Shown: positions 55,293 through 64,000, counted from the stretch's first letter. The stretch is 64,000 bases of DNA from Escherichia phage vB_EcoM_CRP22 (OQ708377.1); one strand, 5' to 3'. The notes: generated by a model not told the origin, from the letters alone. A program made the numbers and translations.

Positions 55293-56078
55293 ATGGGTAT
55301 TGTAAAAATCATCAATGGGGATATCTTCTCCGCATTTGATAAAGGTAAGTTTGATGTTATTGGTCACGGTTGCAACTGTATGAATTTAATGGGTGCAGGT
55401 ATCGCTGACAAGATTTCTAAACTTTACCCAAAAGCATATGAGACTGATACAGAAGTCTATCTGTATGCAGGTGGTATAGGTCACAAACCCTGTGAAAATT
55501 TACTAGGCAATTTCTCTGTAGCACGTTTAGAACAAGGCCGTATAGCTAACCTTTACACTCAGCTTAAGACTGGTAAAGATGCCCGATACAGTGCTTTAGA
55601 GTCATCTTTGAAACAACTTAACAGATACTGTGAAGTCAATCAGTTGAAGAAAGTTGGGTTACCTATGATTGGTGCAGGTATCGGTGGACTAGACTCTCAA
55701 GCCGTCACAGTCATCATTAATCAGGTGATGAAGAGTGTAGATGTGTATCTGTATGTCTATGAAGGAGAGATGTACCACAAGTTACGCTCAGGTTGGAAGA
55801 ACTACTGTGAACCAGAATACTTTGCTGGTGTAGTAGTGTTCACTAATGATGTAGTTACCCTCTTCAGACGAAGAAAAGGCAAGATACATCAAAGTAACCC
55901 TCCGGTTGAAAAGATGTCTCTAAGTAACGCTCTAGTTACCCACCTGTCGAAGAGCAATCACAGAATTGCAGTAACATTTGGCAGTGATGCAGATACATAT
56001 ATCTATGCAAGAACTGATGAGGATGTTGAGGAAATTTTCTCTTCACCGGAAGTAACCTTCTTAGACGCAAAGAACTAA
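55293..56078 (+). CDS. macro-domain protein (ADP-ribose binding/hydrolase candidate)
   Basis: N-terminal IINGDIF, GHGCNCMNLMGAGIADKI and later GLPMIGAGIGGLD match the macro-domain G-rich loop pattern. Confidence 0.5.
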   Translation: MGIVKIINGDIFSAFDKGKFDVIGHGCNCMNLMGAGIADKISKLYPKAYETDTEVYLYAGGIGHKPCENLLGNFSVARLEQGRIANLYTQLKTGKDARYSALESSLKQLNRYCEVNQLKKVGLPMIGAGIGGLDSQAVTVIINQVMKSVDVYLYVYEGEMYHKLRSGWKNYCEPEYFAGVVVFTNDVVTLFRRRKGKIHQSNPPVEKMSLSNALVTHLSKSNHRIAVTFGSDADTYIYARTDEDVEEIFSSPEVTFLDAKN

Positions 56079-56152
56079 GAAACTCTGTAGAATATTCACA
56101 ATAAACTAAGCCTTTCTTATCTGGTAAATTTTTCAGGTAAGGAGGGCTTTTT

Positions 56153-56330
56153 CATTTTAGAATTGTGCAGGTAGAGTTCTGTAGAGAAATCTGTAGAGAA
56201 AATTTTGAACTCCAAAGAGAAAATTCATTTTCAAACTGTGCAGGTAATCTCCAAAGAGCTTTTTCATTTTCAAAACGTGCAGACCCCGCTCAGGTCGGGC
56301 AAGAAAAATCATTTTAGAATTGTGCAGGTA
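56153..56330. repeat. four direct repeats of a 21-bp box CATTTT(A/C)(G/A)AA(n)(T)GTGCAG(G/A)(T/C)(A/C)
   Basis: Boxes at 56153-56173, 56226-56246, 56265-56285, 56310-56330 (first and last identical); also tandem TCTGTAGAGAAA x2 and TCCAAAGAG x2. Confidence 0.6.
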
Positions 56331-56506
56331 GGTGGGTGCATGTGGGGATGTCGCCATTTCTCACAAGGCTACCACATCTGAAAAGAAAAGTCAACAGAAA
56401 AATTTGTAGCGGATTGAAAAATAATTCTTGATTGTAGTTCTGTTTTGTGGTAGTCGCGTGCGCCCGTTTCATTACAGTTTTTGCAAAAATATTTTTAAAA
56501 TTCCTA

Positions 56507-56535
56507 TTGACTCTTTGAATATGGTTATCTAATAT
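56507..56535 (+). promoter_or_regulatory. sigma70-like promoter (TTGACT-N17-TAATAT) at head of early-gene array
   Basis: TTGACT 56507-56512, 17-nt spacer, TAATAT 56530-56535; upstream AT-rich tract. Confidence 0.55.
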
Positions 56536-56584: not shown

Positions 56585-56791
56585 ATGCTTTACAGTCGTG
56601 AATTGATGGTTACAACTAACGTTAACACAAAGGTAAAACGTTTTTATATGCAAGTTTGCGGCGCATGGCGTAGAATATCAGAAGCTGATTATTGCAACTA
56701 TGTAGAAACGGCAATCAACTCCAATTGCTACCTTACGAAGAACACAAAGAAACTTATAAAACAGACAGCGGTTTACTATTACGATATATAA
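56585..56791 (+). CDS. small early-region protein
   Basis: 68 aa; ATG preceded by conserved CTAAACTGGAGAATCAAAA leader. Confidence 0.4.
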   Translation: MLYSRELMVTTNVNTKVKRFYMQVCGAWRRISEADYCNYVETAINSNCYLTKNTKKLIKQTAVYYYDI

Positions 56792-56880
56792 AAGTACTTT
56801 ACAGGGGGCTTAAAAGCTGATATCTTAAGCCCCAGATAAAGAGCTTTACTAAATTAACCCTTAAACTAGGAGATTCAAAA
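56792..56880 (+). promoter_or_regulatory. intergenic module A copy 1 (TTTACA-N17-TATCTT overlapping GC hairpin, conserved leader and RBS)
   Basis: aagtactttacagggggcttaaaagctgatatcttaagccccagataaagagctttac...taaactaggagattcaaaa. Confidence 0.5.
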
Positions 56881-57261
56881 ATGGCTTATCGTGCACCTAA
56901 ATTCATCAACAAAGACAACTTTCGCAACACACTGGAGAAGTCACTTGATGAAAATTTTAAAGGTAACATTGTTGTTGTTCACTCGTTTAATTTCAAGTAT
57001 GATATCAACGGGAATAAAATCAACCATTACACGGCAACCATGTTAGATGGTACACTATCAAGTGAAAAAGCCGTACTGAATGCACTTGCAGGACGTGGTA
57101 AAAACCTGATAAGATGCGATAAGAGACGTTATCAGGGTGGCGCATATGGTTATGATGATGCTGTTTATCATCTTGAAAATATGGGCTATTCAGTGGAAAA
57201 AGCTGGAGTGTCTCAAATAATCGGCAGTGACGGCTATGTGACAATTTTCAAAATTAACTAA
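56881..57261 (+). CDS. early-region protein
   Basis: 126 aa, follows module A. Confidence 0.4.
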   Translation: MAYRAPKFINKDNFRNTLEKSLDENFKGNIVVVHSFNFKYDINGNKINHYTATMLDGTLSSEKAVLNALAGRGKNLIRCDKRRYQGGAYGYDDAVYHLENMGYSVEKAGVSQIIGSDGYVTIFKIN

Positions 57262-57263
57262 TA

Positions 57264-57349
57264 AAGTACTTTACAGGGGGCTTATAGTTCGATAAAGTAA
57301 GCCCCAGATAAAGAGCTTTACCACTAAATCCTAAATTGGAGATTCAAAA
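57264..57349 (+). promoter_or_regulatory. intergenic module A copy 2
   Basis: TTTACA-N17-TAAAGT; hairpin arms ggggctta/taagcccc (compensatory variant). Confidence 0.5.
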
Positions 57350-57640
57350 ATGGCTATTATTAAAAACGTTGTAATTCCTGCAAAAACTCGTGATGACGCT
57401 CGCATCATGGCGAAAAAGTTAGGCGGGAAAGTGGTTGACAACGGAAAACAAACTGCTGTAAGGTGGAACGTGAAGGCGGATAAACAAATGAATTTAAAAA
57501 ATTCACCAATAAACCTTTTTACATGTGTAAACACTATCGGGAAAACGAATGTATACACTAAAAAGGCATATATCAGACGCATCGCCATGACGTCACCTAT
57601 TCGCACAATGAGAAGTCATGCAAAGCTGAAAATTAAGTAA
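57350..57640 (+). CDS. early-region basic protein
   Basis: 96 aa, follows module A. Confidence 0.4.
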   Translation: MAIIKNVVIPAKTRDDARIMAKKLGGKVVDNGKQTAVRWNVKADKQMNLKNSPINLFTCVNTIGKTNVYTKKAYIRRIAMTSPIRTMRSHAKLKIK

Positions 57641-57642
57641 TA

Positions 57643-57730
57643 GAGTACTTTACAGGGGGCTTAAAAGCTGATATCTTAAGCCCCAGATAAAGAGCTTTAC
57701 TACTCAATCCTTAAACTAGGAGATTCAAAA
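57643..57730 (+). promoter_or_regulatory. intergenic module A copy 3
   Basis: Near-identical to copy 1. Confidence 0.5.
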
Positions 57731-58243
57731 ATGAAAACTGTAGACGCTACCTTTGAAGTTGTAAAAGAAAAATTTTCCATCATTTACGAAGCTGTCAATT
57801 GCTACGAAGCAAGCCATAATCTTGATAATTGGAAGTTTACAGATGACCATCAAGGCGGTGTGACTATTAAAAACCCCAACTGTCAGCGTAATGGATTTAA
57901 ATATGCAATTCCTTTACATTACAGCCTTAAACAGCTTTCAATTGACTATGCAAAACAAGGCCGGGAAAATCCATCGAAAGAGGCTTACATCAGCTTACAG
58001 AAAGAACTAGAAAGAGATTTAGAGGCTTCAGAATATAACATCGCCGCGAAAGTTGTAGATGCAAACGGTAGCACGGTTTTAGAGAGTTTTTATATTGGTT
58101 ATGCTTTCGATTGGTGCTACAGTGACGGCGATGATTTAGATGACAGACTAAAAGAGGAAGTGAACAACGCAGACGCAGAATCTGAAGTATTAGAACGCTT
58201 GGAAGCATTAAAAGATTCAGTGATGAATATCTTTAAGAACTAA
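57731..58243 (+). CDS. early-region acidic protein
   Basis: 170 aa, follows module A. Confidence 0.4.
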   Translation: MKTVDATFEVVKEKFSIIYEAVNCYEASHNLDNWKFTDDHQGGVTIKNPNCQRNGFKYAIPLHYSLKQLSIDYAKQGRENPSKEAYISLQKELERDLEASEYNIAAKVVDANGSTVLESFYIGYAFDWCYSDGDDLDDRLKEEVNNADAESEVLERLEALKDSVMNIFKN

Positions 58244-58246
58244 ATA

Positions 58247-58330
58247 GATTTCTTTACACGGGGCTAACAAGCGGATATGATAGCCCCAGATAAAGAGATT
58301 TATCAACTGTCCTAAACTGGAGATTCAAAA
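58247..58330 (+). promoter_or_regulatory. intergenic module A copy 4 (diverged)
   Basis: TTTACA-N17-TATGAT; hairpin arms ggggcta/tagcccc; leader ...cctaaactggagattcaaaa. Confidence 0.45.
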
Positions 58331-58627
58331 ATGAAACTATCAAATAAAGTTAGGGAAAACCTTAGTAAATTACTCAACAAAATTGATTTTATCGAGACCT
58401 CAAGAAATACTCATGAGGTGATGGAATGGTTACACGGCAAAATAAAAGGCCGTCGTGTAGTGATTTGCTTATGGAACAGTTGCAGGGAATATAAAAAACC
58501 TGTATTACAAGTTAATATTTATGATGATACTTTTAAAAGTCCTGTAAAGTCTAAAAGCGATTTATTAGAATCCTATGAGATAACTGTAAATGGCAAAGTA
58601 TCACGTAAAGAGGAAACACCATGTTAA
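58331..58627 (+). CDS. early-region protein
   Basis: 98 aa. Confidence 0.4.
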   Translation: MKLSNKVRENLSKLLNKIDFIETSRNTHEVMEWLHGKIKGRRVVICLWNSCREYKKPVLQVNIYDDTFKSPVKSKSDLLESYEITVNGKVSRKEETPC

Positions 58628-58953
58628 TGATTGGTATCACTGCAACCGTTGCCATTTTCGCGCTATATAAGGCGTATAAGGCCTATAATCTAGCAAATAA
58701 GGCAATCACACAGCAGGTTAGCAATAACTTGGTAGAGAGCTTTCTAGGACGCCTCAGTGATGAGCAAATAAAGCGGCTAGAGATGAGCTTCAGATATAAA
58801 GCGAAAACCTATCAGATAAGTGACATCTTCAAAGATGATTTTCAGCTTGTCGATGATTATAACTCTCTGATAAATGCTTTAAATGTCAGTGACTTAAAAG
58901 ACTATTACGCTGTAATTGTTCAAGAATTGAGCAAACGAAAAAATTCCTCTTGA
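58621..58953 (+). CDS. early-region membrane protein
   Basis: 110 aa; N-terminal hydrophobic helix (MLMIGITATVAIFALY); start overlaps previous stop. Confidence 0.4.
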   Translation: MLMIGITATVAIFALYKAYKAYNLANKAITQQVSNNLVESFLGRLSDEQIKRLEMSFRYKAKTYQISDIFKDDFQLVDDYNSLINALNVSDLKDYYAVIVQELSKRKNSS

Positions 58954-59039
58954 TTTTGGTTTTTAAAACAAGTAAATTACTAATCAACGGGAGGGATAAC
59001 CTCCTACTAAATAAAGTCCTTAAACTAGGAGATTATAAA
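58941..59039 (+). repeat. intergenic module B copy 1 (GTAAATTACTAATCAACGG + GGGAGG/CCTCC hairpin + conserved leader)
   Basis: tcttgattttggtttttaaaacaagtaaattactaatcaacgggagggataacctcctactaaataaagtccttaaactaggagattataaa. Confidence 0.5.
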
Positions 59040-59312
59040 ATGTATACTACTAACAACGGTCGCACTTTAAACGTAACCCTACGTCACTATGTAAACGGTG
59101 TGATGTGCTTTGATGATTTACAAGCTGAGCAACATATCTTGGATTGGCAACTTGCAGGACTCCAAAAAACTGCTACCGGATACGGGAAAAAGATTCCAAC
59201 TAGCTGGAAAGTCCACTACAAAGGACGTTTGCGCAGAATTTATCAGGATATATGTAGCAATAGCGCATCAAGTTACATCATGGTAAAAGGTAAAAAATTA
59301 CACTTAGTATAA
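59040..59312 (+). CDS. early-region protein
   Basis: 90 aa starting MYTTNNGRTL at the conserved ATG after module B; ORF-track N-terminal extension is a translated repeat. Confidence 0.4.
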   Translation: MYTTNNGRTLNVTLRHYVNGVMCFDDLQAEQHILDWQLAGLQKTATGYGKKIPTSWKVHYKGRLRRIYQDICSNSASSYIMVKGKKLHLV

Positions 59313-59398
59313 AGTACTTTACAAGGGGCTTATAGTTCGATAAAGTAAGCCCCAGATAAAGAGCTTTACTAACTAAATCCTAAATTGGAGATTCAAAA
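59312..59398 (+). promoter_or_regulatory. intergenic module A copy 5
   Basis: TTTACA-N17-TAAAGT; same hairpin variant as copy 2. Confidence 0.5.
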
Positions 59399-59803
59399 AT
59401 GGCTATTAATAACCGTGAGTTATCAATCTTAAAAGCACGTTTGACCGTTAACCGGATTAATGTTATCACGTCATCAGCACCGGATGAAACACTTCAAAAC
59501 ATTATTAGGAAGATTCAAAGTGTTATCTTAGACGTTGAAAGCGTAAAAAACTCATTGGCTGACGTTGCAGCAGGTATCACGCTAGACGGTGCACAATATG
59601 AAATGGTTGACATGTTAGGCAAATCTAAAGTAATGAATAAAGAGTTAGATTTGAAAATGTTCCGTTTTGCTGTTAAGGTGTGGCTATCCATCGAATATGA
59701 CGCAAATTTTGCAATCGCTGACTTTTTCGCAACATGGTTACAACGTAATTTAACAAATTATGATTTTCGTGATATCTGCGATGCAATTTACGCAGAACTT
59801 TAA
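59399..59803 (+). CDS. early-region protein
   Basis: 134 aa. Confidence 0.4.
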   Translation: MAINNRELSILKARLTVNRINVITSSAPDETLQNIIRKIQSVILDVESVKNSLADVAAGITLDGAQYEMVDMLGKSKVMNKELDLKMFRFAVKVWLSIEYDANFAIADFFATWLQRNLTNYDFRDICDAIYAEL

Positions 59804-59908
59804 AAATTTCTCTTGATTTTGGTTTTTAAAACAAGTAAATTACTAATCAACGGGGAGGGAATGACCTTTCCCCCACTAAGTAAAGTCCTTAAACTAGGAG
59901 ATTCGAAA
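59804..59908 (+). repeat. intergenic module B copy 2
   Basis: tctcttgattttggtttttaaaacaagtaaattactaatcaacggggagggaatgacctttccccc...ccttaaactaggagattcgaaa. Confidence 0.5.
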
Positions 59909-60112
59909 ATGGCTATTATTAATGGTTTAAACATTGAAACTACTCACATCAAAGATATTAAAGTCGGCGATATAGTCCTTTTTCACGGCGTAGAAAAAAC
60001 CGTCACTGAAAAGGATATCAAAGAGGATTCATTCATGGGTCGGTCGCTCTTCGGTGATTCCTATTGCTTAGGTTACCGTGCAGTTTTAAAAGTTGTCAAA
60101 AATAATCGTTAA
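59909..60112 (+). CDS. early-region protein
   Basis: 67 aa starting MAIINGLNIE at the conserved ATG. Confidence 0.4.
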   Translation: MAIINGLNIETTHIKDIKVGDIVLFHGVEKTVTEKDIKEDSFMGRSLFGDSYCLGYRAVLKVVKNNR

Positions 60113-60123
60113 AGTACTTTACA

Positions 60124-60198
60124 AGGGGCTTAAAAGTTGATATCTTAAGCCCCAGATAAAGAGCTTTACCACTAAATCCTAAACTGGAGATTCAAAAA
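60124..60198 (+). promoter_or_regulatory. intergenic module A copy 6
   Basis: TTTACA-N17-TATCTT; hairpin ggggcttaa/ttaagcccc. Confidence 0.5.
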
Positions 60199-60765
60199 AT
60201 GAAATGCTATCACGGCACTACTCTGAAAAACTTTGTAAACCTGCTTAAAGGTGGCGACAAGCCGGAAGGTATCTGGAACTGCTCTTACATGGATGATTGT
60301 TTTTACGTTTACCCGATGGATAAGATTATCAAGACGGAATGCCTGGAAGATGAAGAAGACCCTTACATCCGTGAACGCTGCATTCAAAACGCTTTAGAGT
60401 CGGGGCTTATTACGGCAGCTTTCCAAATGGAAACGCAGGAAGTGATTGTAATTGAGATGGATATCCCAGAGGAAGAGCTTGAGGATGATTATTCTTGTGA
60501 CAACATGAGCGAAATCGCCAGCTTTACCGGTTACTTTGATAAAGATTGGATTATCGGTATTCACTCGACGAAATTTAGTGCAATGTATGCGCCATTCTTT
60601 GTTCCTGATACAACTAACCATAATTTGGGCTATATTGACGATGATTTGTTGAGTATTGCAAAAATTGTACAGAATAGCGGGGAGACTTCTTCTGTGTTTT
60701 GTGACCTGCTGGATAAAATTACCGAGAATCTCACAGAGCGCAATCTAAGCGACTTTTTAGACTAA
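60199..60765 (+). CDS. early-region protein with ADP-ribosyltransferase-like (H-G-T) N-terminal motif
   Basis: 188 aa; MKCYHGTTLKNFVNLLKGGDKP resembles the YHGT NAD-binding strand-helix of diphtheria-toxin-class ARTs and Tpt1/KptA (recalled); aromatic-rich SYMDDCFYVY; acidic stretches. Confidence 0.35.
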   Translation: MKCYHGTTLKNFVNLLKGGDKPEGIWNCSYMDDCFYVYPMDKIIKTECLEDEEDPYIRERCIQNALESGLITAAFQMETQEVIVIEMDIPEEELEDDYSCDNMSEIASFTGYFDKDWIIGIHSTKFSAMYAPFFVPDTTNHNLGYIDDDLLSIAKIVQNSGETSSVFCDLLDKITENLTERNLSDFLD

Positions 60766-60794
60766 GCAGTACAAAGACACTAATTTCCAACTTA

Positions 60795-60815
60795 AGGCCC
60801 ATACAGGGCCATTTA
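60795..60815 (+). terminator. hairpin terminator-like element
   Basis: ggcccatacagggcc followed by ATTT. Confidence 0.4.
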
Positions 60816-60828
60816 GAGGGCTTAAATC

Positions 60829-61062
60829 ATGCTTACAACCGTTTATCTCATCCTTTCTATTTGTAACGGTCATTCATGTGATTTTAAAGGGCTTGAGGAG
60901 TTTACAGGAAGTAAAGAAAATGCTATTCAGGTTTGCCAGATAGCAAGGCAAGACTATCCCGCCAGTGATGATATACAATGCTACTTCAAAACAGAAGATA
61001 ACGACGGCGTCTATTTTGATAGTGTCGATGGTCAATATGAAATTATCATTGAAAAAGACTAG
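60829..61062 (+). CDS. early-region small protein with N-terminal hydrophobic segment
   Basis: 77 aa; MLTTVYLILSICNGHSC... Confidence 0.35.
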   Translation: MLTTVYLILSICNGHSCDFKGLEEFTGSKENAIQVCQIARQDYPASDDIQCYFKTEDNDGVYFDSVDGQYEIIIEKD

Positions 61063-61078
61063 ACAAGCCTGATAAAAG

Positions 61079-61153
61079 TCTGTAAATTACTAATCAACGG
61101 GGAGGTAATGACCTTCCCCACTAAATAAAGTCCTTAAACTAGGAGATTCTAAA
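61079..61153 (+). repeat. intergenic module B copy 3
   Basis: tgtaaattactaatcaacggggaggtaatgaccttccccactaaataaagtccttaaactaggagattctaaa. Confidence 0.5.
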
Positions 61154-61402
61154 ATGTATACTAAAACTCAACTAAAAAACATGGTTAGCAATGGCTTAAT
61201 GGATGAAGTCTATAAAGAGTGTAGACGATATGGAGAAATCAAAGGTAAAACAAGCTATGAATACACCCACACAATAAACTTTAAAACTAATGAGCAAAAA
61301 ACCGACTTAATAACTAGCATTATAATTGAGTATAAAGGTATAATATGGTCCTTTGAGCTAGTGAAAGGTGAGTGCATAGAAATCGAATACAAAGACGCTT
61401 AA
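61154..61402 (+). CDS. early-region protein
   Basis: 82 aa. Confidence 0.4.
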   Translation: MYTKTQLKNMVSNGLMDEVYKECRRYGEIKGKTSYEYTHTINFKTNEQKTDLITSIIIEYKGIIWSFELVKGECIEIEYKDA

Positions 61403-61488
61403 AAGTACTTTACAAGGGGCTTAAAAGTTGATATCTTAAGCCCCAGATAAAGAGCTTTACCACTAAATCCTAAACTGGAGATTCAAAA
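61403..61488 (+). promoter_or_regulatory. intergenic module A copy 7
   Basis: Identical core to copy 6. Confidence 0.5.
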
Positions 61489-61830
61489 ATGGCTTATGTA
61501 ACCGTAATTACTGATAAAGCTGGCTCATCTTGGTCAACTCAAGTAAGTGATAAGATGTCACCTATGCAGTGCCTAAAATACTTTGAGCAGTGGAACAAAG
61601 GCGAGGATGTCAGCCCCTTTCAAGTGATGCAAATCATCCATACAGATAACGAAGGAAACAAAACGACACTTAATAGTGAGTATTACACAAATCGTTTTGA
61701 GAGTCGAGTTGAAACGATGAAGGGGCTGCGTGAGGCCGGATATGGGCACATTGCCGCCTTGTTATGGGATGACCTGCTAAAAAGTCAGCGTATCAGCTAC
61801 ATAAAACCTGAAAAAATATTCATCAGTTAA
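61489..61830 (+). CDS. early-region protein
   Basis: 113 aa. Confidence 0.4.
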   Translation: MAYVTVITDKAGSSWSTQVSDKMSPMQCLKYFEQWNKGEDVSPFQVMQIIHTDNEGNKTTLNSEYYTNRFESRVETMKGLREAGYGHIAALLWDDLLKSQRISYIKPEKIFIS

Positions 61831-61977
61831 TCAATAACTTACAAAAAACTTTTAAAAAAGTGTTGACAATCCCTATTGACATTGGTAACTTTGTTCGAGG
61901 GGGCTTATCTTAAAGGGATTCACTTAAAAGGTTCTTTATAGATAAGCTCAAAAAATTACTTGCAATCAGATATCAAA

Positions 61978-62051
61978 ACAAGTAAATTACTAATCAACGG
62001 GGAGGGATTAACCTTCCCCACTAAACAAAGTCCTAAACTGGAGATTCAAAA
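61978..62051 (+). repeat. intergenic module B copy 4
   Basis: acaagtaaattactaatcaacggggagggattaaccttccccactaaacaaagtcctaaactggagattcaaaa. Confidence 0.5.
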
Positions 62052-62582
62052 ATGAACAAGTTCAAAGCTATCAACTTCATTCGTTCAAATAGTGTCATGT
62101 CAAAGCCTGTTAAAGATACCTATGAATTTCGTTGTAATGGTGTACATTTTGCAACAATCACCAAATCAGAAAACGGGGCTTATTACGTCCATCGTCGTAA
62201 TGTTGCAACCGTTGCAGTCTCTCACTTTATGCAAGCTGTAGCGGAATTATTACCGTTATTCTTAGAGATTTATCTAGATGATTGTAAAAACGTTCACAGA
62301 CACGTTAAAAACCTTTTAAACGGTTATAGAATGGCTTATGAACGTTCTATCAAGTCCTTAAACAAGTTCTATAAAGCCCCTGTAAATACCGTTTCAATGG
62401 CCTATGGCGTAGGTGGCTGGACTGTTAACCTTTCTCTAGTGGAAGAAATCGAGCTTTATGATTTACGCCCTGATGGATACTCTAAGACACTGGGAGAGGG
62501 CTTATCTTTCAATATCAAGAACTTAGAGAAAACTTTAAAAGATATTGAAAAAGATATTGACGAGACAACCAAAAATCTGTAA
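62052..62582 (+). CDS. early-region protein
   Basis: 176 aa; stop codon TAA forms the start of the next module B core (cTGTAAATTAC). Confidence 0.4.
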   Translation: MNKFKAINFIRSNSVMSKPVKDTYEFRCNGVHFATITKSENGAYYVHRRNVATVAVSHFMQAVAELLPLFLEIYLDDCKNVHRHVKNLLNGYRMAYERSIKSLNKFYKAPVNTVSMAYGVGGWTVNLSLVEEIELYDLRPDGYSKTLGEGLSFNIKNLEKTLKDIEKDIDETTKNL

Positions 62583-62651
62583 ATTACTAATCAACGGGGA
62601 GGGGATGACCTTCCCCACTAAGTAAAGTCCTTAAACTAGGAGATTCAAAAA
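62577..62651 (+). repeat. intergenic module B copy 5
   Basis: ctgtaaattactaatcaacggggaggggatgaccttccccactaagtaaagtccttaaactaggagattcaaaaa. Confidence 0.5.
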
Positions 62652-62900
62652 ATGGCAACTATCCGCGCAATTGTAAATTCTTATGGCTGCTACACTCTGG
62701 ACGTTAAATTTGATATTGGTGGGACTGATGAGTGTTTCGAACTGGTGAAGACAGTCATTAAACAAGTTATCCCAGACTATAACCCCACTGATGACTTCTG
62801 GAAAGATGCCGTAAAAGAGGCGTTGAACGATGAATATCATTACCATTACTGGGGTGACTTGATTGTCTCCCTATACTACAGCAAACAAGGTTACAACTAA
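62652..62900 (+). CDS. early-region protein
   Basis: 82 aa; last gene before the 1.1 kb non-coding region. Confidence 0.4.
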   Translation: MATIRAIVNSYGCYTLDVKFDIGGTDECFELVKTVIKQVIPDYNPTDDFWKDAVKEALNDEYHYHYWGDLIVSLYYSKQGYN

Positions 62901-62936
62901 TCGACGCAACGGGGCTAAATAGCCCCAGATACCTTC

Positions 62937-62990
62937 AAAGCCCCTTTATATTGATTCGATAGAATCTATCTCATAGGGGCTTTTTTATGT
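62937..62990. terminator. long hairpin (AAAGCCCC...GGGGCTTT) enclosing palindrome GATAGAATCTATC, followed by T-run
   Basis: 8-bp GC-rich stem arms at 62937-62944 and 62976-62983; TTTTTTAT after; palindrome at about 62958-62970 with a second degenerate copy at about 63038-63050. Confidence 0.45.
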
Positions 62991-63329
62991 CTTATCAAAT
63001 CCTTTCCCTTTCCAGAATCTATCCCACTAATTCGATAGAACCTATCTCATACCTTAAAAGGCAATAACTCTATAGCTTACTCTATAGCCCCTTATCAAAT
63101 CAACTTAAATATAAGCCCATAACCCCAGAAAGGGGATGGCCTCTTATTGGTATTGTTACCAATCCCCTAAAACGCTCTATAAAGCTCTATAACAGCCTTA
63201 TCAACCTAACTTAAGGGATTGCATTAACTCACCTTAAAAAGCTCTTTACAGGGCTTTATAGAGGCTTAAAAGAATCTTATAAGGTTATAAGCTTTATTAT
63301 CTCGTTAGCTATCTTGTGAACTACTAAAA

Positions 63330-64000
63330 AGGGGCTTGTTAGTGTCTTAAAAGTATGTTATAGGGGCTATAAAGTTACTTCAAAGTTACGTAAAAGAAGC
63401 TATAAAGTTACGTAAATGCTAGCCCCCTTAACATCTTCTTAACAAATTCTTAACAATACCTACATAGTTATGCTTGTTAGAGACTTGTTAGCCCCTTGTT
63501 AAATCTCTGTTAAAACCACGTAAAAGCTTTGTAAGAGTCTTTGACATAGCCTTAAAAGCTCCTGTAAAGCCTTATAAATAGGTGTCTGTATAGTTGGGGT
63601 GTAATTACTAGGAAGAGGTTTAAAAGAGCTTACAAGGAGCTATAGAGAGCTTTTAAAAGGGCTATTTAGAGAATCACTAAGAGGGAAAGGGAACGATAAG
63701 AAAGAGATAGTGACCATGTTAATAGCTTGTTAAAAAGATTAAACACTTGTTAGGAACTTGTTAATTATCTTAACAAAATAACTCTTAAAAATTAACTTGT
63801 TAGCTCTTGTTAGTCATCCGTTAAGACGCTGTAAAGCCCATGTAGCAACTGTTAAGAACTTGTTACAGCCTTGTTAGTTCTGTTAAGAGTCTGTTAAGAC
63901 CTCTGAAGAGATGTTAAGAGGATGTAATAGCTGTTAAGAGATTGTTAAGGATATTTTAAAATTCTGCAAAGGGGATGTTACAGGGATGTTAAGGGCTACC
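63330..64000. repeat. dense array of short (C/T)TGTTA(A/G) motifs in ORF-free DNA
   Basis: More than 20 copies, e.g. 63850, 63860, 63871, 63880, 63890 spaced about 10 bp apart; no ORF of 60 aa or more on either strand from 62901 to window end. Confidence 0.6.

What the first reader, a model, noticed from the sequence alone, without database searches (positions are those of the whole stretch)
56153..56330. Iteron-like cluster of four 21-bp direct repeats upstream of the early promoter
Boxes CATTTT(A/C)(G/A)AA(n)(T)GTGCAG(G/A)(T/C)(A/C) occur at 56153, 56226, 56265 and 56310 (first and last identical), interleaved with tandem TCTGTAGAGAAA and TCCAAAGAG repeats. They lie in a 500-bp intergenic region between the macro-domain gene and the promoter at 56507. 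This is consistent with multiple binding sites for one DNA-binding protein (early-operon regulator or replication-origin iterons). The two minus-strand ORFs predicted here look like repeat translations.
Basis: seen in the sequence. Interest (0 to 1): 0.5.

Follow-up and report, generated by a model that had tools for sequence, protein, structure and literature searches.

The report
Conserved four-box array, Felix-O1-like phages
Four copies of a two-part 18-bp DNA motif sit in a gene-free stretch of a Felix-O1-like phage and have been kept, in number, order and direction, across the whole phage subfamily, so they are almost certainly docking sites for one still-unidentified protein, but whether they serve replication, transcription control or something else cannot be told from sequence.

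Summary
Boxes CATTTY-N6-GTGCAG start at 56153, 56226, 56265 and 56310 (+). They are unique in the window and in a complete related genome.

The window is a Felixounavirus. The boxes lie in the 506-bp gap between the macro-domain gene terminator and the first sigma-70 promoter of a roughly 7-kb terminal module of small early genes. This is about 7.1 kb inside the right direct terminal repeat (63422-64000).

Four co-oriented boxes are conserved in Felixounavirus, Suspvirus, Mooglevirus, Kolesnikvirus and an uncultured 88-kb lineage. Against Erwinia phage phiEa21-4 the 12 core positions are 43/48 identical, while spacers (27%) and codon third positions (34%) are randomised. All four Kolesnikvirus boxes read GTGCAT instead of GTGCAG, a concerted change.

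The boxes are not coding, not a structured RNA, not a repeated promoter, and not the packaging terminus.

The best reading is a binding-site array for one lineage-co-evolving DNA-binding protein. "Iteron" is only loosely apt:
- spacing is irregular;
- no initiator gene is nearby;
- GC skew turns elsewhere.

I lean weakly to a transcriptional border or regulatory role (about 0.3) over an origin (about 0.25). I found no published description of the element.

The parts
55293..56078 (+). Macro-domain ('phosphatase', T4 Tk.4-like) gene, the conserved upstream neighbour of the array
   Evidence: Pfam PF01661 E 2e-7; PHROG 335. A macro gene precedes the boxes in every lineage examined.
56108..56152 (+). 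Intrinsic terminator hairpin plus T-tract; the T-tract is the 5' flank of box 1
   Evidence: 17-pair stem followed by a T run; annotated as a terminator in phages Barry, wV8 and KhF1.
56153..56170 (+). Box 1, CATTTTAGAATTGTGCAG
56178..56201 (+). Tandem TCTGTAGAGAAA x2 in the long spacer between boxes 1 and 2; degenerate pieces of the repeat unit
   Evidence: TRF score 48; conserved in Felixounavirus, altered in Mooglevirus, absent in Kolesnikvirus.
56226..56243 (+). Box 2, CATTTTCAAACTGTGCAG, preceded by CTCCAAAGAG-AAAAT
56265..56282 (+). Box 3, CATTTTCAAAACGTGCAG, preceded by CTCCAAAGAG-CTTTT
56310..56327 (+). Box 4, CATTTTAGAATTGTGCAG, preceded by GGTCGGGCAAG-AAAAA
56328..56385 (+). Variable segment ('form A' in this window). 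Most other lineages carry a C-rich, G-poor tract here instead ('form B', CCCCTCTCCCCCTCTTACTCCCCCTCTCCCC).
   Evidence: Alignment; phiEa21-4 and Michonne sequences.
56386..56431 (+). Conserved 46-bp A/T-rich block (74% AT): AAAAGTCAACAGAAAAATTTGTAGCGGATTGAAAAATAATTCTTGA
   Evidence: Nearly invariant across Felixounavirus, Suspvirus and Mooglevirus; AT content. Not recognisable in phiEa21-4.
56482..56535 (+). UP-element-like A/T run and the first sigma-70 promoter of the terminal early-gene module (TTGACT-17-TAATAT)
   Evidence: conserved in the alignment.
56585..63421 (+). Terminal module of about 15 small early genes of unknown function, each with its own promoter and terminator cassette; the box array is its inner border
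   Evidence: ORFs; PHROGs all 'unknown function'; repeated cassettes; H12 annotation.
63422..64000 (.). Right direct terminal repeat; context only, it shows that the boxes are not the terminus
   Evidence: The 581-bp DTR annotated in MW481326 aligns to 63422-64000 at 88% identity.

Best explanation
The four boxes are co-oriented recognition sites on double-stranded DNA for one sequence-specific DNA-binding protein. That protein is most likely phage-encoded and has not been identified.

Each site has two invariant blocks, (T)CATTTY and GTGCAK, whose centres lie 12 bp apart. That spacing corresponds to two successive major grooves on one face of the helix. The blocks are joined by a variable A/T-rich linker.

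When occupied, the sites would form a unique nucleoprotein landmark. It sits immediately after the terminator of the long rightward transcription unit and about 200 bp before the first promoter of the right-terminal early-gene module.

My committed guess for its job is control of transcription at this border. It could act as a roadblock or insulator backing up the terminator, or as a long-range regulator of entry into the early module.

Shown here: the repeats, their uniqueness, their selective conservation, their orientation, and their position relative to terminator, promoter and terminal repeat.

Inferred: that a protein binds them, that it is phage-encoded, and what the complex does.

I put about 0.75 on the generic claim of a protein-binding DNA array. 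I put about 0.3 on the transcriptional-border role.
For: 1. The boxes are statistically real and form a single-copy locus. The window has 4 matches against 0.08 expected. A complete 87.6-kb relative has only these 4 exact sites.

2. Conservation is selective. Over 125 box instances, positions A2-T5 and G13-T14-G15 and A17 are invariant, while the six linker positions vary. Against phiEa21-4 the core is 43/48 identical, the linker 11/24, the spacers 27%, and third codon positions of the neighbouring gene 34%.

3. Box number, order and orientation are kept in Felixounavirus, Suspvirus, Mooglevirus, Kolesnikvirus and an uncultured lineage.

4. All four Kolesnikvirus boxes carry GTGCAT-AGG where the others have GTGCAG-GTA. 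Such a concerted change is expected if a lineage-specific protein co-evolves with its sites.

5. Spacing shifts of 2-4 bp between genera are tolerated. This fits independent binding better than a phased wrapped complex.

6. Position: box 1 abuts the terminator T-tract. In most lineages a C-rich, G-poor tract resembling a Rho-utilisation site follows box 4. All boxes point in the direction of transcription.

7. Rival molecular readings fail:
- Rfam and tRNA searches find nothing.
- There is no RNA structure signal: z-scores are -0.76 and 0.02, and the covariation term is unfavourable.
- Any reading frame is broken between genera.
Against: No binding protein has been identified. The one recognisable regulator is an HTH_3 protein. 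It was not detected in Erwinia phages that have the boxes, and no regulator is annotated between the frd and ligase genes of phiEa21-4, where Felixounavirus carries it.

The boxes lie 180-350 bp upstream of the -35 hexamer, and that distance varies from 190 to 240 bp among lineages. The other early promoters have no boxes. A classical operator role is therefore unlikely.

The uncultured lineage has no predicted terminator before its boxes. One of its members has lost the CATTTT half of two boxes.

The C-rich tract is replaced in this very window.

Nothing here measures transcription or binding.
Confidence: 0.3

Rival explanations
1. Replication origin. The boxes would be initiator-binding repeats (iterons in a loose sense). 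The conserved A/T-rich block at 56386-56431 or the UP-element region would be the unwinding element. The adjacent strong early promoter would supply transcriptional activation or an RNA primer.
For: The layout of binding-site array, then A/T-rich conserved block, then strong promoter is the textbook origin layout. There is one such locus per genome. By general knowledge, clusters of four or more direct repeats at one non-coding locus of virulent phages have often proved to be origins, for example lambda ori, T4 oriE, SPP1 oriL and lactococcal phage ori. In most lineages a polypurine/polypyrimidine tract follows box 4.
Against: Spacing is irregular (73/39/45; 37/37/39) and changes by 2-4 bp between genera, unlike phased iterons. 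No initiator-like gene is adjacent; the neighbours are a macro-domain gene and small proteins of unknown function. The replication genes lie 25-30 kb away. Cumulative GC skew turns only at the strand switches near 9, 40 and 51 kb of the related phage H12, with no inflection at the boxes. The divergent DNA polymerase / primase-helicase junction is a more conventional candidate. The A/T-rich block is only 74% AT against a 61% genome average, and it is not recognisable in phiEa21-4.
Confidence: 0.25
2. RNA-level element. The repeated motif would be read in a transcript and bound by an RNA-binding protein. The transcript could be read-through from the macro gene (CAUUUY-N6-GUGCAG). It could also be an antisense RNA from a possible leftward promoter at 56394-56366 (TTGACT-17-TGgTAGCCT), which would carry CUGCAC-N6-AAAAUG four times.
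For: The Felix O1 genome paper scored its predicted 'ORF14' as transcribed by RT-PCR, maximal at 25 min (PMC3185647). By its numbering between ORF13 (macro gene) and ORF15, ORF14 should lie in this gap; that placement is my inference. A -35 TTGACT on the minus strand is conserved across three genera (read directly). In phiEa21-4, promoter-like sites on the minus strand overlap two of the repeat units.
Against: No Rfam family matches. Folding is no better than shuffled sequence and shows no covariation on either strand. The candidate leftward -10 is weak (TAGCCT, or TAAGAG in other lineages) and was not called by the promoter scan in this window. The boxes lie downstream of a strong terminator. 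The RT-PCR was not reported as strand-specific.
Confidence: 0.1
3. DNA-entry or anchoring signal, analogous to the injection-stop (iss) region of phage T5. On this reading the array would mark where genome entry pauses, or where the DNA is held, at the inner border of a terminal host-takeover module.
For: The array lies 7.1 kb inside the right terminal repeat in this phage, about 7.2 kb in Erwinia phage MM7 and about 6 kb in a Mooglevirus. That is 8-9% of an 86-90-kb genome, compared with 7.9% for the T5 first-step-transfer DNA (bioRxiv 10.1101/866236). As in T5, an untranslated repeat region is better conserved than the adjacent small early genes, which differ between relatives. All four phiEa21-4 boxes contain a DnaA box with one mismatch; DnaA boxes are also a feature of the T5 iss region.
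Against: The terminal repeat is only about 0.58 kb and the boxes lie outside it. No paired inverted repeats of the T5 type are present. By analogy with T5, I expected DNA that enters first to avoid restriction sites most strongly, and the opposite holds. G/C-containing 6-mer palindromes have an observed/expected ratio of 0.85 in the module against 0.48 in the rest of the window, and the same trend appears in two relatives. The macro gene, outside the module, is already maximally expressed at 5 min in Felix O1. Two-step entry has never been reported for these phages, as far as I know.
Confidence: 0.06
4. Host DnaA (or another host factor) binds the GTGCA half of each box, so the array is a cluster of weak DnaA boxes.
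For: On the minus strand, phiEa21-4 boxes read CTATGCACA (three times) and TTATGCACG. Each is one mismatch from TTWTNCACA.
Against: In this window, and as read directly from the Suspvirus and Mooglevirus boxes, the same positions read ACCTGCACA, which is three mismatches. No box in the window matches within one mismatch. The equally invariant CATTTY block is not explained. The concerted G-to-T difference between lineages is what a co-evolving phage factor would produce; a host protein that changes little would not be expected to drive it (my inference).
Confidence: 0.05
5. The array has no function and is a decaying tandem duplication of a roughly 40-bp unit.
For: The whole 300-bp stretch is built from degenerate pieces of one unit. 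In the uncultured lineage some boxes have decayed.
Against: Core positions are about 90% identical between genera whose spacers and synonymous sites are at random-level identity. Drift would have erased them.
Confidence: 0.03

Closest known systems
Iteron arrays of replication origins (lambda ori, P1 oriR, plasmid Rep iterons, T4 oriE)
   Same: Four direct repeats of about 18-22 bp, all in one orientation, at a single locus. The repeats are asymmetric, with two conserved blocks about one helical turn apart. An A/T-rich segment and a promoter lie nearby.
   Different: Spacing is irregular, is not a multiple of the helical repeat, and shifts by 2-4 bp between genera. No Rep, O or DnaA-type initiator gene is adjacent or recognisable. 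There is no skew or other replication signal. Origin activity is untested.
Injection-stop (iss) untranslated repeat region of T5-like phages (Davison, bioRxiv 10.1101/866236)
   Same: A conserved non-coding repeat region at the inner edge of a terminal block of small early genes, about 8% of the genome from one end. It is better conserved than the neighbouring genes.
   Different: The T5 iss lies inside a 10-kb terminal repeat and is built from large inverted repeats with paired DnaA boxes. Here the terminal repeat is about 0.58 kb, the boxes lie outside it, and they are simple direct repeats. Palindrome avoidance is relaxed in the terminal module, where I expected it to be strongest.
Asymmetric operator / 'stoperator' sites of mycobacteriophage L5-type repressors
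   Same: Short asymmetric sites that all point with the direction of transcription and lie in intergenic DNA. A bound protein could block elongating RNA polymerase.
   Different: Stoperators are 13 bp long and scattered at some 20-30 places through a temperate phage genome. Here four 18-bp bipartite sites are clustered at one place in a virulent phage. No repressor is known.
Promoter-early stem-loop (PeSL) style regulatory cassettes of T4-type phages
   Same: The adjacent early module is built from repeated promoter and terminator cassettes flanking small variable genes.
   Different: The boxes are not part of those cassettes. They occur once, upstream of the first cassette, and contain no promoter or hairpin.

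Membership tests
Iteron-type replication origin | Three or more direct repeats of about 17-22 bp in one orientation | tested here: met
   Four co-oriented 18-bp boxes, 23 bp with conserved flanks.
Iteron-type replication origin | Repeats regularly spaced, in helical phase (typically about 22 bp or multiples) | tested here: not met
   Start-to-start spacing is 73/39/45; 75/41/45 or 77/39/45 in Mooglevirus-type contigs; 37/37/39 in phiEa21-4.
Iteron-type replication origin | Cognate initiator (Rep / O / RepA-like) gene adjacent to or overlapping the repeats | tested here: not met
   The neighbours are a macro-domain gene and small proteins with no Pfam hit and PHROGs of unknown function. The first downstream genes are not homologous between lineages. 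The whole proteome was not screened.
Iteron-type replication origin | Adjacent A/T-rich unwinding element | tested here: inconclusive
   A conserved 46-bp block has 74% AT and the UP-like run 84% AT, against 61% for the window. The block is not recognisable in phiEa21-4.
Iteron-type replication origin | Origin activity (copy-number peak, autonomous or phage-dependent replication) | not testable with these tools
   GC skew shows no inflection at the array, but skew here follows gene orientation and is not decisive.
T5-type injection-stop (iss) region | Conserved untranslated repeat region at the inner border of a terminal pre-early gene block, about 8% from the end | tested here: met
   Box 1 lies 7,848 bp from the end of the terminal repeat, and 6-7 kb from it in three genera.
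T5-type injection-stop (iss) region | Lies within a long (about 10 kb) terminal repeat | tested here: not met
   The DTR is about 0.58 kb at 63422-64000; the boxes lie outside it.
T5-type injection-stop (iss) region | Large inverted repeats carrying paired DnaA boxes | tested here: not met
   No such inverted repeats are present. No DnaA box within one mismatch lies in the window's boxes.
T5-type injection-stop (iss) region | Two-step DNA transfer dependent on A1/A2-like proteins | not tested
DnaA-box cluster | 9-mers matching TTWTNCACA | tested here: not met
   The window boxes read ACCTGCACA on the minus strand, 3 mismatches. phiEa21-4 boxes are 1 mismatch off.
Repeated phage promoter (middle or late class) | The same motif upstream of many genes of one temporal class | tested here: not met
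   The motif occurs only at this locus in the window and in a complete genome. No sigma-70-like site was called in the boxes of this window.
Known structured RNA family or tRNA | Match to an Rfam covariance model or tRNA model; conserved secondary structure | tested here: not met
   No Rfam or tRNA hit. Fold z-scores are -0.76 and 0.02, with no covariation support.
Terminal repeat / packaging site | Coincides with the physical genome end | tested here: not met
   The DTR annotated in MW481326 (found with PhageTerm, PMC8303462) maps 7.1 kb downstream. Public records that begin or end in this gap reflect assembly breaks.

The most novel reading that the evidence does not exclude
The array could be a new kind of genome 'border element' that marks off the right-terminal host-takeover module (8-9% of the genome) from the rest of the chromosome. 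It might pause or anchor the DNA during entry, or set up separate handling of the two parts. The array coincides with a switch in restriction-site (palindrome) avoidance: observed/expected 0.48 on the inner side and 0.85 in the module. It also keeps a distance of 6-7 kb from the terminal repeat in three genera, even though the genes in between are replaced.
Probability: 0.08. Interest if true: 0.8.

Novelty: new variant of a known kind. Interest (0 to 1): 0.5.

Why it matters
Felix O1 and its relatives are classical Salmonella-typing phages and are widely used as biocontrol and therapy candidates. How they time transcription and where they start replication is still unknown; the Felix O1 genome paper says so explicitly (PMC3185647).

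This array is the most strongly conserved non-coding element I found in the window. It outlasts the genes around it across at least four genera and an uncultured lineage. It therefore marks a specific, short and easily mutated target, and it can serve as bait for finding the protein that binds it.

Identifying that protein would probably expose either the origin or a control point of the early programme. For genome engineers, the practical point is that this 'empty' 500-bp gap is not a neutral insertion site.

Tried and rejected
1. Terminal repeat or packaging site. Several public records and metagenome contigs begin or end in this gap (KhF1, EC106, TH10, FSL SP-010, four IMG/VR contigs). The annotated 581-bp DTR of Pr103Blw nevertheless maps to 63422-64000. 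The breaks fall in the C-rich tract or in repeated promoter cassettes. Some carry Nextera adapter remnants (L023; VpaE1_ev035) or low-quality N-rich sequence (KhF1). They are assembly artefacts.

2. Coding sequence. The minus-strand ORF 56157-56357 translates the boxes as L-H-x-x-K-M. The frame is broken in other genera, and the 'third positions' are invariant.

3. Structured RNA, tRNA or Rfam family. None found.

4. Repeated promoter. The motif occurs nowhere else.

5. HTH_3 regulator as the binding protein. It is present in Felixounavirus, Suspvirus and Mooglevirus. It was not detected in Erwinia phages, and no such gene is annotated at the syntenic place in phiEa21-4.

6. Macro-protein C-terminal extension as the binding protein. 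The uncultured lineage has a 148-aa macro protein without that extension and still has the boxes. I did not pursue it with a structure prediction.

7. A conserved downstream partner gene. None exists.

8. Wider searches.
- A two-box pattern in IMG/VR found only Ounavirinae-type contigs, one uncultured lineage, and chance or coding repeats such as L059.
- The metagenome scan returned only 15-nt satellites and other unrelated tandem repeats.
- 79 loci with T4-type macro genes carry no boxes, apart from that one lineage.

9. Host-factor consensus sequences compared by eye (MarA/Rob marbox, IHF, Fis, PhoB, OmpR, sigma-54). None fits; this was inspection only, not a test.

10. Literature. No paper in the held library describes these boxes. 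The PhageMaP study of phage Bas63 covers intergenic insertions, but its supplementary files are not held.

Full report
**What the window is**

The region matches about 290 phage records, nearly all Felixounavirus and relatives (Ounavirinae, the Felix-O1-like myoviruses), at up to 98% identity.

In a related genome arranged from its physical ends (H12, PP952733) the map is as follows:
- a terminal repeat;
- a leftward arm;
- tRNA and structural genes;
- a leftward replication arm;
- a 36-kb rightward arm running through nucleotide-metabolism genes, rIIA/B, the spanins and a macro-domain gene;
- finally about 15 small genes of unknown function, up to the right end.

The 581-bp direct terminal repeat annotated in phage Pr103Blw was reported from PhageTerm analysis (PMC8303462). 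It aligns to window 63422-64000, and the window ends exactly at its end.

**The observation**

It is correct in every detail.
- CATTTTMRAAHYGTGCAG occurs four times, all on the + strand, at 56153, 56226, 56265 and 56310, and nowhere else in 64 kb. The chance expectation is 0.08.
- Copies 1 and 4 are identical over 23 nt.
- The TCTGTAGAGAAA tandem and the CTCCAAAGAG elements are present.
- The array is the strongest local direct-repeat family in the window.
- It lies in the 506-bp gap between the macro-domain gene (Pfam Macro) and a TTGACT-17-TAATAT promoter-like site at 56507. The macro gene's terminator (56108-56149) has a T-tract that runs straight into box 1.

**Comparative anatomy**

I collected the homologous gap from 27 IMG/VR contigs, from several GenBank phages and from pattern searches.

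Four boxes, in the same order and orientation, occur in:
- Felixounavirus, including Felix O1 itself;
- Suspvirus;
- Mooglevirus;
- Kolesnikvirus (Erwinia phage phiEa21-4).

A three-box allele goes with a divergent macro-gene allele.

An uncultured 88-kb lineage has no close cultured relative. It has a plain 148-aa macro gene followed by four boxes of the Kolesnikvirus type.

Over 125 box instances the pattern is T-CATTTY-N6-GTGCAK. Nine positions are strictly invariant, and the linker is variable and A/T-rich.

The comparison with phiEa21-4 is the clearest test, because the macro proteins are only 37% identical:
- box cores, 43/48 identical;
- linkers, 11/24;
- inter-box spacers, 27%;
- third codon positions, 34%.

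The cores are therefore under purifying selection in DNA that is otherwise randomised.

Four of the five core differences are the same change. All four Kolesnikvirus boxes end in GTGCAT-AGG instead of GTGCAG-GTA. That is a concerted shift, of the kind expected when sites co-evolve with their reader.

**What it is not**

- Not the terminal repeat or packaging site. The many public sequences that break inside this gap do so in a C-rich homopolymer-like tract or in repeated promoter cassettes. Some carry adapter remnants.
- Not coding. Spacings of 73/39/45, 75/41/45, 77/39/45 and 37/37/39 break any frame, and the would-be wobble positions never vary.
- Not a known or structured RNA.
- Not a class of promoter. 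A complete genome has only these four sites.
- Not a general companion of macro genes. Among 79 loci with T4-type macro genes, only the two contigs of the uncultured lineage carry boxes.

**What it most likely is**

Two invariant blocks lie one helical turn apart across an A/T-rich linker. All copies point one way and form a single cluster per genome. The sequence shifts in concert between lineages. This is the signature of a binding-site array for one sequence-specific DNA-binding protein, probably a phage protein. I could not name that protein.
- The only recognisable regulator is an HTH_3 protein. It was not detected in Erwinia phages that have the boxes, and none is annotated at the syntenic place in phiEa21-4.
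- The neighbouring small proteins have no known domains.
- The genes just downstream are not even homologous between lineages.

**Which function**

*Origin.*
- For: the textbook layout of boxes, then an A/T-rich conserved block (56386-56431, 74% AT), then a strong promoter.
- Against: irregular, unphased spacing; no initiator gene; 25-30 kb between the array and the replication genes; cumulative GC skew that turns only at strand switches.

*Transcriptional border.*
- For: box 1 touches the terminator. The boxes point with transcription. A rut-like C-rich tract follows in most lineages. The array separates the long rightward unit from the cassette-built early module.
- Against: the boxes lie 180-350 bp from the promoter, and the other early promoters lack them.

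*T5-like entry-stop element.*
- For: the position, 7.1 kb from the repeat. That is 8-9% of the genome and is kept at 6-7 kb in three genera.
- Against: the test I could run went the wrong way. G/C-containing 6-mer palindromes are strongly avoided in 1-56078 (observed/expected 0.48) but much less in the module (0.85; coding sequence only, 0.69; P about 2e-5). The same trend appears in two relatives.

*Host DnaA.* The boxes fit a DnaA box only in Kolesnikvirus.

I therefore commit weakly to a border or regulatory role (0.3), with origin close behind (0.25).

**Novelty and interest**

I found no paper in the held library that describes these boxes. The Felix O1 genome paper lists other repeats and states that temporal control is not understood. 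Arrays of protein-binding repeats are a known kind of element. This one is an uncharacterised variant with unusual site architecture and an unusual position. It is a solid, testable lead and not a surprise in kind: interest 0.5.

Noticed in passing
window 63422-64000 (and 62900-63421): The window ends exactly at the end of the right direct terminal repeat. The repeat and the roughly 500 bp of non-coding DNA before it are packed with short motifs (TTAACA, CTTGTTAR, CTGTTAAGA, CTATAAAG). A 22-nt repeat lies at 62954 and 63030, and a 33-nt tandem lies at 63349-63414 just before the repeat starts.
   Followed up: partly
window 56585-63421 versus 1-56078: Avoidance of G/C-containing 6-mer palindromes is strong over most of the genome (observed/expected 0.48) but relaxed in the terminal early-gene module (0.85; coding sequence only, 0.69). 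The change point is at about 55-57 kb, where the boxes are. The same trend appears in phage H12 (0.71 versus 0.49-0.55) and in Erwinia phage MM7 (0.49 versus 0.33).
   Followed up: partly
window 56328-56385; L018, L021, L024, L027-L034, L066, L067: Just after box 4 there are two alternative sequences. This window has 'form A'. Felix O1, wV8, Suspvirus and Mooglevirus have a C-rich tract, CCCCTCTCCCCCTCTTACTCCCCCTCTCCCC, which is a strong G-quadruplex motif on the minus strand. phiEa21-4 has a shorter version. Public assemblies often break or carry adapter debris here (L022, L023, L028, VpaE1_ev035, KhF1).
   Followed up: partly
window 56386-56431: A 46-bp A/T-rich block, AAAAGTCAACAGAAAAATTTGTAGCGGATTGAAAAATAATTCTTGA, is almost invariant across Felixounavirus, Suspvirus and Mooglevirus. 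On the minus strand it holds a TTGACT that, in this window, sits 17 bp from TGgTAGCCT. That could be a weak leftward promoter reading into the boxes.
   Followed up: partly
L085 / L159 / L160 (IMGVR_UViG_3300045988_063805 and _048813): An uncultured lineage of about 85-88 kb has no close cultured relative. It carries a Dam-like methylase, a 148-aa macro gene, four boxes of GTGCATAGG type, a run of TTAACA repeats and then early-gene cassettes. In one member two boxes have lost their CATTTT half.
   Followed up: partly
window 58965-62650: Near-identical 70-85-nt promoter and terminator cassettes recur between the small early genes (around 58965, 59828, 61082, 61981 and 62579). They recall the mobile regulatory cassettes of T4-type phages. 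Gene content of the module differs between close relatives.
   Followed up: no
L004 / L005 (KT184313, phage KhF1 record ends): The GenBank record carries a 377-bp overlap between its two ends inside this gap. The first roughly 130 bases are low-quality and N-rich. This is an assembly artefact; the record's ends are not the physical ends of the genome.
   Followed up: yes
L059 3200-3620: Ten copies of CATTTTGTATCGGTGCAG in an unrelated 50-kb viral contig are a coding tandem repeat (AAPIQN...) inside a 1195-aa protein. This is a chance match to the box pattern.
   Followed up: yes
L069 42878-43174 (phage H12): A 99-aa Cro/C1-type HTH_3 protein is conserved in Felixounavirus, Suspvirus and Mooglevirus. 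It was not detected in Erwinia Kolesnikvirus phages. It is the only recognisable sequence-specific DNA-binding protein I saw in this phage group.
   Followed up: partly
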